This document shows, piece by piece, positions 39,323-48,871 of a stretch of 64,000 nt of DNA. Made by a program: the position numbers and the translations under genes. Source of the DNA: Elusimicrobiota bacterium (GTDB lineage Bacteria; Elusimicrobiota; Elusimicrobia; UBA1565); NCBI GenBank assembly GCA_016196755.1, contig JACPXC010000062.1, positions 45,043-109,042 on the forward strand, read 5' to 3'. Below the pieces are notes generated by a model, which worked only from the letters and a program-made list of their open reading frames with translations, did no database searches and had not been told where the DNA came from. Every line of letters starts with the position of its first letter. Positions within the stretch are counted from its first letter, which is position 1.

Positions 39323-41035
39323 TCATCGCCGCAGGGCCTCGGCCGCGGGGTCCGCGAAGTCCTCGGCCAGCCGGTCAAGACGCGAGTCGAAGGGGTCCAG
39401 CGCCCGCGCCGCGGCCAGGGCGGCGCGGCCCGCGGGCAAGGAGTCCGAGCCGGCCCAGCGGGCCCGGCGCAGCTCGGCAAGCGCCAAGAGGCGCAGGAAC
39501 TCCGGCTCGGCGGGCCGGAGGCGGGCGCCGGCCAGGGCCGTGTCGCGCGCGCCCTCCAGCAGCGCCCCCCGTCCGGACGGCGGGGCGGCGCCGGCCGCGT
39601 CCCAAAGCAGGTTCATGAGATCCGTCCTGAAGGGCACGGACTCCGGGAGGCCGTCGACGGCGGCTCGGAAGTGATCCGCCGCCTCCCGCGGCCGCCCCTC
39701 GCTCCGCGCCAGCCGTCCCAAGAAGGCATGGCGCTCGGCGGGGATGCGGCGCAGCCCGGCCCAGGCGTTCCAGAGCGTCCCGCTCAGGAAGAGCACGGCG
39801 GCCGCGACCGCCGCGCCCCGCCCGCCCTGCGAGGGACGCGCCCCCAGCGCGGCGCCCGCCAGGGTGGCGGCCAGGAAGGCCACCGGCAGGATCGGGAGGT
39901 TGGTCTTGCTGAACAGAAAGATCGCAAGGAGTCCTCCCCCGGCCGCGGCGCCGGCCGCTCCCGGCGCCAGGGCCAGGCGCAGGCCGGCGATGTGCAGCCA
40001 GGCGTAGGCCGCCGCGCCCAAAGCGCCGAGGGCCGCCAGGACCTCCGCCCAGTCGTTATGGGCGTGGGGATAGACCGAGCCGGGAGGCGCCGCCGCGGCC
40101 AATGACTCTGAGCGCCGGCGCCTGTATAGGTTGCCGAAGGTCCCCGGCCCCTGGCCCAGGAGCGGCCGCTCGGCCAGGCCCCGCGCGGCGACCAGCAGGG
40201 CCGGCAGGCGCGTGCCCGCGGGGCGGGAACCCTTGAAACCGATCCAAGCCGTCGCCGCCGCCGCCGCCGCCAAGCAGCCGACCACCAGAGTCCATGCCGC
40301 GCGCCGGGCCCAAGGCCGCCCATCGCGCCACAGGAGCAGCCCGCCGCCGCAGGCGGCTCCCAGCCAGGCTCCCCGGGTCCCCGAGGCGGCCAGCGCACCC
40401 GCCGCCAAGGCCGCTGAAGCCGACGCGGCGACGCGCTCGGCTCCCGGCCGCGCCGCCAGCGCCCAGGCCAGGGCGGCGGGGGCGGCCAACGCCAGGTAGC
40501 CGCCCAGGGCCACGGGATGGCCGAAGAGGCCGCTGGCCCGGTCCAATTCGCCGCGGACCAGGAAGAACGCCCACCGAGGCGCCAACACCTGGGCCAGCGA
40601 GACCAGCGCGACCAGCACGGAGCCCGCGGCCAAACAGACGCCCAGCCCGCGGTCGGCCCCCGGTTCCGAGCGGCCCGCGGCCACGCCCAGGTAAAATCCG
40701 GCCAGCACGGCCGCCAGCCCGGTCAGCGAGGCTAGCGGCTCGAGCTCCGGGCCATAGAGGCTGGCGGGCAGGTCCGCGGAAACCGCCGTGGAGGCCAGCG
40801 CGGCCAGGCTGAAGGCCGCCAACGGAGCCTCCAGGCCGACCGCCAGCGAGCCGGCACCCCCGGCCGCCCAGGCCAGCGCTCCGGCGGCGGCGGCTGCCGC
40901 GGCCAGCAGGCACTTGGGAAGGAGCGCGGCGTCGCGCAGGCCGAAGAAAACCAGGCTCGGCGCGGCCAATGCGGCGGCGCAGGCGGCCCGGTAGGGGAGC
41001 ATGGCCAAGGAATCCCTAGAGCGGGATGTTCCCAT
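39323..41035 (-). CDS. Wzy_C (O-antigen ligase/polymerase-like) membrane protein with C-terminal TPR-like domain
   Basis: Motif SVYPHAHNDWAEVLAALG (Wzy_C), 10 or more TM helices, C-terminal helical repeats. Paralogous in architecture to the protein at 14610..16208. Confidence 0.65.
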   Translation of the reverse strand: MGTSRSRDSLAMLPYRAACAAALAAPSLVFFGLRDAALLPKCLLAAAAAAAGALAWAAGGAGSLAVGLEAPLAAFSLAALASTAVSADLPASLYGPELEPLASLTGLAAVLAGFYLGVAAGRSEPGADRGLGVCLAAGSVLVALVSLAQVLAPRWAFFLVRGELDRASGLFGHPVALGGYLALAAPAALAWALAARPGAERVAASASAALAAGALAASGTRGAWLGAACGGGLLLWRDGRPWARRAAWTLVVGCLAAAAAATAWIGFKGSRPAGTRLPALLVAARGLAERPLLGQGPGTFGNLYRRRRSESLAAAAPPGSVYPHAHNDWAEVLAALGALGAAAYAWLHIAGLRLALAPGAAGAAAGGGLLAIFLFSKTNLPILPVAFLAATLAGAALGARPSQGGRGAAVAAAVLFLSGTLWNAWAGLRRIPAERHAFLGRLARSEGRPREAADHFRAAVDGLPESVPFRTDLMNLLWDAAGAAPPSGRGALLEGARDTALAGARLRPAEPEFLRLLALAELRRARWAGSDSLPAGRAALAAARALDPFDSRLDRLAEDFADPAAEALRR

Positions 41036-47244: not shown

Positions 47245-48871
47245 GGTGTTCTCCGAAGACGCCGCGCAGGGCGGCGCATATCTCGCCGAGGGTGGCTCCG
47301 TTCTCGACGCAGGCGAGGACCTGAAGGAATAGGTTGACCTTGGGGTCGCCGGCCTTGCGGGAGAGCTCGGCGACGGCGGCCGCGGCGGTTGCCGTGGGCC
47401 TCTTGCGCTTGAAGGCGGCCAGACGCTTCTTCTGCTCGACCTCGAGCTTGGGCGAGACCTTGAGGGTGGGCCGCGCGGTCTTGCCCTTCTCGTCGATCTC
47501 GTAGCAGTTGACGCCGACGACCTTGCGCCGGCCGGACTCGACGTCCTTCTGCCACTTGAAGGCCGACTCCTGGATCTCGGCCTGGGCGCGGCCGGCGGCG
47601 ATGGCGGGCAGCATCCCGCCGCCCTCGCGCACGCGGTCCATCAGGGCGACGACCTTGGCCTCGAGCTCGTCGGTCAGGGCCTCGATGGCGTAGGAGCCCG
47701 CCACGGGGTCGACCGTGCCGGCCGCCCCGGTCTCGCAGGCCAGGATCTGCTGGGTGCGCAGGGCCAGGCGCGCCGACTCCTCGGTGGGCAGGGCCAGGGC
47801 CTCGTCGTAGGCGTTGGTGTGGAGCGACTGGCAGCCGCCGAGGACGGCGGCCATGGCCTGCAGGGAGACCCGGGCCACGTTGTTGAGCGGCTGGCGGCTG
47901 GTGAGGGTGGAGCCGCAGGTCTGGACGTGGAAGCGCAGGGCCGCCGAGCGCGGGTCCTTGGCCTTGTAGCGCTCGGTCATGAGCCGCGACCAGATCCGGC
48001 GGGCGGCGCGGAACTTGGCCACCTCTTCCAGGAAGTGGCTGTGACAGCCGAAGAAGAACGCCAGGCGCGGGGCGAAATCGTCGACGGCCAGGCCGCGGCT
48101 GAGCAGGGCGTCGACGTAGGCCTCGGCGTTGGCCAACGTGAACGCCACCTCTTGGACGGCGTCGGAGCCCGCCTCGCGGATGTGGTAGCCCGAGATCGAG
48201 ATCGGGTTCCACTTCGGGAAATGCCGGACCGAGTGCTCGATGGCGTCGACGGCCAGGCGCATGCCGTGCTCGACGGGATAGATGTAGGTGCCGCGGGCCA
48301 GGTACTCTTTCAAGATGTCGTTTTGCAGGGTGCCGCGGATGCGGGCGGCGTCGACACCCTGCTTCTTGGCGACGGCCACGTAGAAGGCCTGGAGGATCGG
48401 CGCCGTGGCGTTGATCGTCAGCGAGGTGGAGACCTCGCCCAACGGGATTCCCTCGAGCAGTGTCTCCATGTCGGTGAGCGTGCCGACGTGGACGCCGACC
48501 CGGCCGACCTCGCCTCCGGCCTCGGGGGCGTCGGCGTCGTAGCCGGTCTGGGTCGGCAGGTCGAAGGCGGTCGACAGCCCGGTCTGGCCCTGCGCGAGCA
48601 GGTAGCGGAAGCGCTCGTTGGTCTGCGAGGCGGTGCCGAAGCCCGCGTACTGGCGCATGGTCCAGAGCCGGCCGCGGTACATCGTGCGCTGGACGCCGCG
48701 GGTGAAGGGCGGCTCGCCGGCCACGCCCAGCTTGGCGTAGAAAGAAGGGTCGCGGGTGTCGCGGCCGGCGGCGCCGGGGGCGCCCGGGCCATAGAAGCGC
48801 TGGACGGGGATGCCCGACGGAGTCAGGAACTCCGTCTCGGGCGCCGCGGTCTCGGTCTCGTTCTCAGCCAT
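47234..48871 (-). CDS. Methylmalonyl-CoA mutase large (catalytic) subunit
   Basis: MM_CoA_mutase TIM-barrel motifs ([29 protein letters not shown]). Trimmed to MAENETE. Confidence 0.85.

What the first reader, a model, noticed from the sequence alone, without database searches (positions are those of the whole stretch)
41016..48871. PilB ATPase and a GAF-HD-GYP phosphodiesterase inserted between the two methylmalonyl-CoA mutase subunit genes
The gene order is mutase large subunit, pilB, GAF-HD-GYP, mutase B12 subunit, meaB, mce, pccB-like. All are co-directional, with 4-11-nt overlaps (for example ATGA between pilB and the HD-GYP gene). A pilus motor ATPase and a c-di-GMP hydrolase would thus be co-transcribed and translationally coupled with a central propionate/succinate pathway. 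This is an unusual linkage that suggests c-di-GMP control of pilus function tied to metabolic state. The pilin and pilD genes are 33 kb away.
Basis: seen in the sequence. Interest (0 to 1): 0.55.

Follow-up and report, generated by a model that had tools for sequence, protein, structure and literature searches.

The report
Pilus ATPase genes interleaved with mutase operon
In a large group of uncultivated Elusimicrobia, a pilus-motor ATPase gene and its signalling partner gene sit between the two subunit genes of methylmalonyl-CoA mutase; the layout is real and anciently conserved, but the proposed c-di-GMP link between pili and metabolism is only weakly supported.

Summary
On the minus strand, 39323-49208 carries DUF192, mutase large subunit, PilB-like ATPase, GAF-HD-GYP, mutase B12 subunit, MeaB, epimerase, carboxyltransferase and a Wzy-like gene, joined by 0-20 nt overlaps. 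It is not a misassembly. About 45 independent Elusimicrobiota assemblies have the same order, and 4 of 4 blindly chosen mutase homologues do too. The mutase/pilB junction is an 11-nt overlap in 37 of 43 loci.

- The context-independent unit is DUF192-PilB-HD-GYP. HD-GYP follows pilB in 64 of 71 assessable loci, also where no mutase genes are present.
- None of 78 PilB orthologues has even the relaxed MshEN c-di-GMP-binding motif.
- The window's HD-GYP keeps its metal ligands, but one clade of 23 orthologues, all inside the mutase operon, has lost four of them.
- Tight junctions are normal in this genome, and the cluster lies in a longer string of unrelated genes.

Best reading: two functional modules are interleaved in one transcription unit. 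The GAF-HD-GYP protein is probably a partner or regulator of PilB. The link to the mutase is probably co-expression only. I found no report of this arrangement. Interest is moderate.

The parts
48864..49208 (-). DUF192 (COG1430) gene. It is the first gene of the overlap-joined block, and its stop overlaps the mutase start by 8 nt.
   Evidence: NCBIfam PRK03760. Orthologues score as PF02643. It lies directly upstream of mcmL or pilB in 51 of 65 assessable loci, including loci with no mutase genes. Junction.
47234..48871 (-). Methylmalonyl-CoA mutase large (catalytic) subunit, split type.
   Evidence: PF01642 673 bits. TIGR00641 681 bits, above the 304 cutoff. The RQY and LAR specificity positions align with those of MCM, not with HcmA.
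45445..47244 (-). PilB-like type IV pilus / T2SS-family assembly ATPase (599 aa). It overlaps the mutase stop by 11 nt.
   Evidence: PF05157 + PF00437. Best NCBIfam match is TIGR02538 PilB at 547 bits, below the 676 cutoff. Walker A/B, Asp box, His box and the four zinc-site Cys are invariant or nearly so in 78 orthologues. The MshEN c-di-GMP motif is absent.
44345..45448 (-). GAF-HD-GYP protein (367 aa), with ATGA overlaps on both sides.
   Evidence: PF01590 + PF13487. Full-length match to the PmGH GAF-HD-GYP structure 4mcw, E 7e-38. Ligand columns. The GAF domain is more conserved than the HD-GYP domain.
43902..44348 (-). Mutase small, B12-binding subunit.
   Evidence: PF02310. TIGR00640 172 bits, above the 57 cutoff. 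The DxHxxG motif (DGHDRG) is visible in the translation.
42971..43915 (-). MeaB G-protein chaperone of the mutase.
   Evidence: PF03308. TIGR00750 284 bits, above the 241 cutoff.
42570..42974 (-). Methylmalonyl-CoA epimerase.
   Evidence: TIGR03081 123 bits, above the 115 cutoff.
41016..42569 (-). Acyl-CoA carboxyltransferase (PccB / MmdA / 12S-like).
   Evidence: PF01039 615 bits. TIGR01117 746 bits, below the 999 cutoff.
39323..41035 (-). Wzy_C (O-antigen-ligase-like) membrane protein. It is co-directional and overlaps the carboxyltransferase stop by 20 nt.
   Evidence: PF04932. It holds the same position in relatives. Junction.
9580..10404 (-). Prepilin peptidase PilD. It is a remote pilus gene, not part of the operon.
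   Evidence: PF06750 + PF01478.
11917..12486 (-). Type IV pilin-like protein with an N-terminal methylation motif. It is remote from the operon.
   Evidence: PF07963.

Best explanation
The locus is an ancient, clade-wide interleaving of two gene modules in one co-directional, overlap-joined transcription unit of uncultivated Elusimicrobiota.
- Module P is pilus-related: DUF192, a catalytically intact PilB-type assembly ATPase, and a GAF-HD-GYP protein.
- Module M is the methylmalonyl-CoA pathway: split mutase large subunit, B12 subunit, MeaB, epimerase and carboxyltransferase.
- The order is D-[L]-B-H-[S-G-E-C].

Shown here: the order, the overlaps, their conservation, and the fact that PilB-HD-GYP (and DUF192-PilB) stay adjacent in several unrelated genomic contexts, whereas the mutase genes come and go.

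Inferred:
- The GAF-HD-GYP protein is a dedicated partner or regulator of this PilB. It would sense a small ligand through its highly conserved GAF domain.
- In the window's lineage it can still act as a metal-dependent cyclic-dinucleotide phosphodiesterase.
- In a sister clade it has become a non-catalytic pseudo-enzyme that must work by binding. The closest analogy is the degenerate FimX-PilZ-PilB complex.
- PilB itself is not predicted to bind c-di-GMP in the MshEN way.
- The link to the mutase is most likely co-expression fixed by overlapping gene ends, not a direct biochemical interaction.
For: - Same gene order in about 45 of 80 PilB-centred genome loci, in L082, L161/L162, and in 4 of 4 mutase-centred blind picks.
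- The mcmL/pilB overlap is exactly 11 nt in 37 of 43 loci. The pilB/HD-GYP median gap is +2 nt and the HD-GYP/B12 median is -4 nt.
- HD-GYP lies directly downstream of pilB in 64 of 71 assessable loci, in at least four contexts: the mutase operon; DUF192-pilB-HDGYP-pccB; pilB-HDGYP-Ser/Thr kinase; and others next to malic enzyme or a CoA transferase.
- DUF192 lies directly upstream in 51 of 65 loci, including loci with no mutase genes and loci with no HD-GYP.
- DUF192 genes have independently been reported next to Tad pilus genes in Firmicutes (PMC12786226).
- The PilB ATPase motifs are invariant.
- The HD-GYP matches PmGH over its full length.
- The degenerate clade is monophyletic yet strongly conserved, with GAF identity 0.85 and HD-GYP identity 0.76 within the clade.
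- T4aP genes are normally scattered over several loci (PMC6668835), so a lone pilB is not odd.
Against: - No experiment or transcript data exist. These organisms are uncultivated.
- Physical interaction between PilB and HD-GYP was not tested.
- No pilC, pilM or pilT gene lies near this pilB in any locus inspected, so its pilus role rests on homology. Its PilB equivalog score is below the cutoff.
- The very strict conservation of the 11-nt mutase/pilB overlap could reflect selection for coupled expression with the mutase, which my reading treats as incidental.
- The polarity of gain and loss rests on an unrooted-quality NJ tree without bootstrap support.
Confidence: 0.55

Rival explanations
1. 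An active HD-GYP c-di-GMP hydrolase lowers c-di-GMP locally, PilB senses c-di-GMP through its MshEN domain, and co-translation with the mutase ties pilus extension to flux through the propionate/succinate pathway.
For: The window's HD-GYP retains H205, H237-D238, H263, H286-H287, E289 and GYP, and matches the active enzyme PmGH. PilB has a Pfam MshEN domain. The conserved overlaps imply coupled expression.
Against: None of 78 PilB orthologues match the relaxed c-di-GMP motif, while the positive controls do. Both RLG triplets and the second Gln are replaced. 23 orthologues inside the same operon have lost four metal ligands. The pair persists without the mutase genes. I found no GGDEF domain in the sequences held, but that sample is not informative.
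Confidence: 0.15
2. A neutral gene-order relic. The genes are functionally unrelated, and the order is kept only because overlapping stop/start codons and a compact genome make rearrangement costly. Neither PilB-mutase nor PilB-HD-GYP adjacency carries functional meaning.
For: Overlaps or gaps of at most 10 nt are the rule for co-directional neighbours elsewhere in the window. The cluster is embedded in a long heterogeneous string: glycosyltransferase, HAD, subtilase, Wzy, Mdh, PanK. Genes have been inserted after meaB in some relatives without disturbing the rest.
Against: PilB-HD-GYP adjacency survives relocation into at least four different neighbourhoods, including a paralogous copy in the same genomes. 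Pure inertia would not give that result. DUF192-PilB adjacency is similarly independent of context.
Confidence: 0.25
3. The ATPase and the HD-GYP protein are not pilus proteins here. Instead they serve the mutase, for example in cofactor loading, repair or regulation alongside MeaB.
For: They sit exactly between the two mutase subunits. The overlap with the mutase is extremely conserved. No pilC or pilT lies nearby. The PilB equivalog cutoff is not reached.
Against: The same pair, at 62-72% identity, occurs without any mutase genes, polyphyletically. The protein has the full PilB/GspE architecture including the zinc-binding Cys4. I know of no precedent for such a role.
Confidence: 0.04
4. Assembly or binning chimera specific to this MAG.
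For: None found.
Against: The order is identical in dozens of assemblies from different studies and assemblers, including a closed 3.8-Mb genome and a 3.1-Mb contig. GC and GC3 are uniform across the junctions.
Confidence: 0.01

Closest known systems
PmGH, the GAF-HD-GYP c-di-GMP phosphodiesterase of Persephonella marina (PDB 4mcw)
   Same: Same two-domain architecture. It aligns over residues 30-356, E 7e-38. HD, HHE and GYP are conserved, and so are the first and third His.
   Different: The position of ligand E185 is Arg, D305 is Glu, and HDIGK is HDIGY. There is a four-residue deletion between the HD motif and the third His. About one third of the orthologues are catalytically degenerate. 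PmGH is not known to be paired with a pilus ATPase (my knowledge).
FimX-PilZ-PilB regulatory complex of Xanthomonas / Pseudomonas
   Same: A degenerate cyclic-di-GMP-turnover protein acts by binding, not catalysis, on the PilB extension ATPase (PMC8389850, listed; described in PMC12943098). This is the best functional analogy for the degenerate-clade HD-GYP.
   Different: FimX uses degenerate GGDEF-EAL domains and a PilZ adaptor. Here the partner is a GAF-HD-GYP protein encoded directly downstream of pilB. No interaction has been shown.
MshE / PilB MshEN-type c-di-GMP receptor ATPases (V. cholerae MshE, M. xanthus PilB)
   Same: Same domain order (MshEN N-domain + T2SSE ATPase). The N-domain aligns with Geobacter, Myxococcus and Thermus PilB/PilF structures.
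   Different: The defining tandem 24-residue c-di-GMP motif is missing in all 78 orthologues. A clade-specific GLxRRKTV...K(S/T/P)(L/F)QQ...SEEW sequence is conserved instead.
Split (archaeal-type) methylmalonyl-CoA mutase operons with MeaB and epimerase
   Same: Separate large and B12 subunits, MeaB, epimerase and carboxyltransferase. The MCM-type substrate residues are present.
   Different: Elsewhere the large subunit is either fused to the B12 domain (homologues at 40-47% identity) or has no B12 gene within the stretch fetched (54-59% identity). Only in this clade are a pilus ATPase gene and an HD-GYP gene wedged between the subunit genes.

Membership tests
PilB / GspE assembly ATPase superfamily (Pfam T2SSE) | T2SSE ATPase domain above the gathering score, with Walker A, Asp box, Walker B and His box | tested here: met
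   PF00437 359 bits against a 24.9 cutoff. GPTGSGKST, ENPVEY, DPDVIMVGEIRD and GHLVFSTIHTN are invariant in 78 orthologues.
Type IV-A pilus assembly ATPase PilB (NCBIfam TIGR02538 equivalog) | Whole-protein score above the curated equivalog cutoff | tested here: not met
   546.8 bits against a 675.65 cutoff. It is still the best-scoring model, ahead of GspE at 455.
Type IV-A pilus assembly ATPase PilB | Genomic association with the pilC platform or other pilus machinery | tested here: not met
   No pilC, pilM or pilT gene was found among the window ORFs scanned or among the neighbours of pilB checked in relatives. pilD and a pilin gene lie 33 kb away. Scattered T4aP loci are common.
MshEN c-di-GMP receptor domain | Tandem 24-residue motif RLGxx(L/V/I)(L/V/I)xxG(L/V/I)(L/V/I)xxxxLxxxLxxQ, or the relaxed form [RKPN]hGxxhhxx[GAS]hhxxxxhxxxhxx[QNKRYWST] | tested here: not met
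   The motif definition comes from PMC5013675. None of 78 orthologues match, while the Myxococcus and Geobacter PilB controls do. The aligned triplets are TVF and TLQ.
MshEN c-di-GMP receptor domain | Pfam MshEN fold-level domain | tested here: met
   PF05157 65.5 bits against a 23.1 cutoff.
HD-GYP phosphodiesterase | HD_5 domain with the HD, HHE and GYP motifs | tested here: met
   PF13487 84.5 bits against a 27.2 cutoff. [15 protein letters not shown] and GYPGK are visible in the translation.
HD-GYP phosphodiesterase | Complete set of metal ligands as in PmGH (E185, H189, H221, D222, H250, H276, H277, D305; residue numbers from my knowledge of the PmGH structure, mapped with a +6 chain offset) | tested here: inconclusive
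   Window protein: six are identical, D305 is Glu, and E185 is Arg. 23 of 67 orthologues lose four ligands. Activity was not measured.
Methylmalonyl-CoA mutase (versus other acyl-CoA mutases) | Large-subunit domain above the cutoff, and MCM-type substrate residues (Tyr in RQY, Arg in the xxR(N/G)TYI motif; knowledge-based) | tested here: met
   TIGR00641 681 bits against a 304 cutoff. The alignment shows query RQY and LAR like human MCM, where HcmA has RQI and MAQ. The position of the HcmA Asp is Ala, as in MCM.
Methylmalonyl-CoA mutase B12 subunit, MeaB and epimerase | Curated equivalog or domain cutoffs | tested here: met
   TIGR00640 171.8 against 57.45; TIGR00750 283.7 against 240.75; TIGR03081 122.7 against 114.95.
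Methylmalonyl-CoA decarboxylase alpha / propionyl-CoA carboxylase beta | Subfamily cutoff of TIGR01117 | tested here: not met
   745.6 bits against a 998.8 cutoff. The Pfam Carboxyl_trans domain is met. The exact enzyme and the direction of the pathway are undetermined.
Anti-phage defence systems (PADLOC) | Any PADLOC model hit for PilB, HD-GYP or DUF192 | tested here: not met
   No hits.

The most novel reading that the evidence does not exclude
DUF192-PilB-GAF/HD-GYP is a previously unrecognised three-part control unit of the type IV pilus motor. A GAF-sensor protein gates PilB directly; it is an active phosphodiesterase in some lineages and a pseudo-enzyme in others. Its strict translational coupling to the methylmalonyl-CoA mutase (the 11-nt overlap, conserved in most loci) is selected so that pilus-motor level tracks flux through the succinate-propionate pathway. 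The GAF ligand could be a cyclic mononucleotide; a class III cyclase sits next to a paralogous copy in L066.
Probability: 0.12. Interest if true: 0.7.

Novelty: new variant of a known kind. Interest (0 to 1): 0.42.

Why it matters
If the PilB-HD-GYP pairing is functional, it would add an HD-GYP-based partner, including a naturally degenerate one, to the short list of proteins that control the pilus extension motor. It would do so in a phylum with no genetic system, where pili are thought to be central to lifestyle. The natural contrast between intact and degenerate HD-GYP clades in an otherwise identical operon is a ready-made comparison for asking what catalytically dead HD-GYP domains do. 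The interleaving with a core fermentation operon is a clean example of two unrelated modules locked together by overlapping genes. It is useful as a caution against inferring function from operon membership, or as a lead to real metabolic control of pili.

Tried and rejected
- Misassembly was rejected on synteny.
- My first guess for the loci of the form x-pilB-HDGYP-pccB was that the upstream genes were transcarboxylase 5S/1.3S subunits. Pfam showed a subtilase and DUF192 instead.
- I expected the paralogous or basal pilB loci to sit in pilB-pilT-pilC operons. Pfam showed a Ser/Thr kinase, CTP synthase, a DAO oxidoreductase, a PLP-dependent enzyme, malic enzyme and a CoA transferase.
- The anti-phage defence reading was rejected: no PADLOC hits and a core-genome context.
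- I searched for GGDEF cyclases in 1.24 Mb of held Elusimicrobia sequence with a consensus query and a regular expression and found nothing. The sample is the same locus repeated, so this says nothing about whether the organisms make c-di-GMP.
- Exact look-up of the window's PilB in the contig index failed, although a 100% identical protein exists.
- The metagenome scan with the mutase returned mostly distant fused mutases because of the peptide patterns chosen. It was useful only as an outgroup.
- The promoter/terminator scan gave only weak consensus matches inside coding sequence and was not used.
- Literature searches found no description of this arrangement.
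Full report
**What is in the window.** The window is about 68% G+C. A protein 100% identical to its PilB-like product is recorded from an Elusimicrobia MAG, on a 164-kb contig.

On the minus strand between 49208 and 39323 there are nine co-directional genes:
- DUF192, 48864-49208
- methylmalonyl-CoA mutase large subunit, 47234-48871
- PilB-like ATPase, 45445-47244 (MshEN + T2SSE domains)
- GAF-HD-GYP protein, 44345-45448
- mutase B12-binding subunit, 43902-44348
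- MeaB, 42971-43915
- methylmalonyl-CoA epimerase, 42570-42974
- PccB/MmdA-like carboxyltransferase, 41016-42569
- Wzy_C membrane protein, 39323-41035

The junctions are overlaps of 8, 11, 4, 4, 14, 4, 0 and 20 nt. pilD and a pilin gene lie about 33 kb away. No other pilus machinery was found among the window ORFs that I scanned with Pfam.

**Is it real and conserved?** A scan of one genome per species found 80 loci encoding close relatives of this PilB, labelled Elusimicrobiota wherever a taxon was given.
- About 45 loci show the identical order mcmL-pilB-HDGYP-B12-meaB-mce-pccB, with PilB identity from 92% down to about 62%.
- Independent gene calls with precomputed Pfam labels confirm the order on JGI, ENA, NCBI and Logan contigs.
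- As a test from the mutase side, I picked four mutase homologues (63-66% identity) on long contigs, not knowing what followed them. All four show DUF192-mcmL-PilB-GAF/HD-GYP-B12-MeaB.
- The mcmL/pilB junction is an 11-nt overlap in 37 of 43 loci. The pilB/HD-GYP and HD-GYP/B12 junctions have medians of +2 and -4 nt.

Misassembly is excluded.

More distant mutases (40-47% identity) are fused large+B12 proteins. Split large subunits at 54-59% identity have no B12 gene within the stretch fetched. Separation of the two subunit genes is therefore not unusual for split mutases. What is unusual is what lies between them.

**Which associations are independent of context?** HD-GYP lies directly downstream of pilB in 64 of 71 loci with enough sequence to judge (65 if the frameshifted L074 is counted). 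It does so in several different neighbourhoods:
- the mutase operon;
- HAD-subtilase-DUF192-pilB-HDGYP-pccB, with no mutase genes;
- a paralogous pilB-HDGYP-Ser/Thr kinase locus in MAGs that also carry the first copy (L062/L064/L065 alongside L011/L014/L006);
- loci next to malic enzyme or a CoA transferase.

DUF192 lies directly upstream of mcmL or pilB in 51 of 65 loci. These include loci with no mutase genes and even loci with no HD-GYP, at 44-60% identity and E 1e-27 to 1e-45. A DUF192 gene has separately been noted next to Tad pilus genes in Firmicutes (PMC12786226).

The stable unit is therefore DUF192-PilB-HD-GYP. The mutase genes are interleaved with it (D-[L]-B-H-[S-G-E]-C), so the picture is not simply of a mutase operon being interrupted.

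In an NJ tree of PilB, the forms that lack the mutase genes but keep pccB fall in three separate places nested among mutase-bearing clades. This suggests repeated loss of the mutase genes. The tree has no support values and is midpoint-rooted, so the polarity is tentative.

**The PilB-like protein.** It has the full PilB/GspE architecture. Walker A, Asp box, Walker B and His box are invariant, and the four zinc-site cysteines nearly so, in 78 orthologues. Its best curated model is PilB, at 547 bits, but that is below the equivalog cutoff of 676.

Its N-domain aligns with Geobacter, Myxococcus and Thermus PilB/PilF. However, where those proteins have the two RLG triplets and closing Gln of the MshEN c-di-GMP site (defined in PMC5013675), this family has TVF, TLQ and Glu. 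It has its own conserved signature, GLxRRKTV...K(S/T/P)(L/F)QQ...LSEEW. None of the 78 orthologues match even the relaxed published motif, while the Myxococcus and Geobacter controls do. Canonical c-di-GMP sensing by this PilB is therefore not predicted. An unconventional mode using the conserved basic residues cannot be excluded.

**The GAF-HD-GYP protein.** It aligns over its full length with PmGH (4mcw), E 7e-38. The window's copy keeps H205, H237-D238, H263, H286-H287, E289 and GYP. The position of PmGH D305 is Glu, and the position of E185 is Arg.

However, 23 of 67 orthologues carry Tyr, Lys, Leu and Val/Ser/Ala at four ligand positions. They form one clade in the PilB tree, and all lie in the complete mutase operon. 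They remain full-length and highly conserved. In both clades the GAF domain is more conserved than the HD-GYP domain. The function common to the family is therefore unlikely to be hydrolysis. Ligand sensing by GAF and protein-protein contact are more likely.

After PmGH, the closest solved relatives of the GAF domain are cyclic-nucleotide-binding GAF domains: CyaB2, PDE5, PDE2 and PDE10. One paralogous locus (L066) has a class III nucleotide cyclase immediately upstream of pilB. These are leads, not tests.

**How much do the overlaps mean?** Overlaps or gaps of a few nucleotides are typical of co-directional neighbours throughout this window. In relatives the block is part of a longer co-directional string: glycosyltransferase-HAD-subtilase-DUF192-...-carboxyltransferase-Wzy-malate dehydrogenase-pantothenate kinase. 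Overlap supports co-transcription but does not by itself indicate shared function. By the same logic, the subtilase and the O-antigen-ligase-like gene would have to be tied to propionate metabolism as well.

**The mutase.** The large subunit scores highest against HcmA among solved structures. At the substrate-determining positions, however, it has the MCM residues (RQY, LAR and Ala) rather than those of HcmA (the assignment of these residues rests on my knowledge of the MCM, ICM and HCM literature). With MeaB, the epimerase and a carboxyltransferase above or near curated cutoffs, and malate dehydrogenase downstream in relatives, a succinate/propionate (methylmalonyl-CoA) pathway is the sensible assignment. 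Its direction is undetermined.

The best-supported mechanism is a PilB partner/regulator role for the GAF-HD-GYP protein, catalytic in some lineages and non-catalytic in others, analogous to FimX-PilZ-PilB. The mutase linkage would reflect co-expression fixed by overlapping genes.

I found no description of this arrangement in the searchable literature. All parts belong to known families, so I rate it a new variant of a known kind, of moderate interest.

Noticed in passing
window 49175-49594 and 50285-50348: Partial duplication upstream of DUF192. 49555-49594 is a 90% copy of the DUF192 5' start (49175-49214), and 49470-49533 is a 77% copy of the subtilase 3' tail (50285-50348). A relic subtilase-tail/DUF192-start junction is flanked by small inserted ORFs, including a DUF5615/PIN-like gene at 49608-49946. 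In relatives the subtilase gene is followed directly by DUF192.
   Followed up: partly
window 52227-53738: An AAA_14/DUF4143 ATPase gene in a stretch of lower G+C (0.53-0.57 against about 0.68) lies between the HAD and subtilase genes, which are adjacent in relatives. It is probably a foreign insertion.
   Followed up: no
window about 18800-39300: A roughly 20-kb polysaccharide-biosynthesis island lies between the Wzy_C gene and malate dehydrogenase (17804-18769). It holds glycosyltransferases, Wzm/Wzt-type ABC transporter genes, methyltransferases, MBOAT, an epimerase, and B12-binding and SPASM radical SAM enzymes. In relative L161, Wzy_C is followed directly by Mdh and PanK.
   Followed up: partly
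L015, L017, L021, L025, L026, L029, L032-L042, L044, L045, L047, L071, L074, L075 (HD-GYP gene directly after pilB): A monophyletic clade of HD-GYP pseudo-enzymes has the signature Y-HK-L-HHK...V/S/A in place of H-HD-H-HHH...E, while the GYP motif is mostly kept. Some lose the precomputed PF01966 (HD) hit.
   Followed up: yes
L066 7448-8011; L062/L064/L066 about 10760-12200: The paralogous pilB-HDGYP pair is followed by a Ser/Thr protein kinase gene. In L066 it is preceded by a small class III adenylate/guanylate cyclase gene that overlaps the pilB start. This is a possible cNMP-to-GAF signalling link.
   Followed up: no
L164 12817-14304; L163 12823-13242: Extra genes are inserted between meaB and the epimerase in some relatives: a Beta-lactamase2 family gene in L164 and a 139-aa ORF in L163. 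The upstream six-gene block is untouched.
   Followed up: no
L074 8001-9801 (CP096137.1, closed genome): pilB matches as a truncated segment (8001-9356) and sits on a very long branch in the tree. This suggests a frameshift or indel errors in this assembly rather than a real difference.
   Followed up: no
window 6357-7208 and 7507-8175: An IS200-like Y1 transposase gene and a PIN-domain gene lie next to the pilD/pilin region. A second Wzy_C-TPR protein is encoded at 13971-16208.
   Followed up: no
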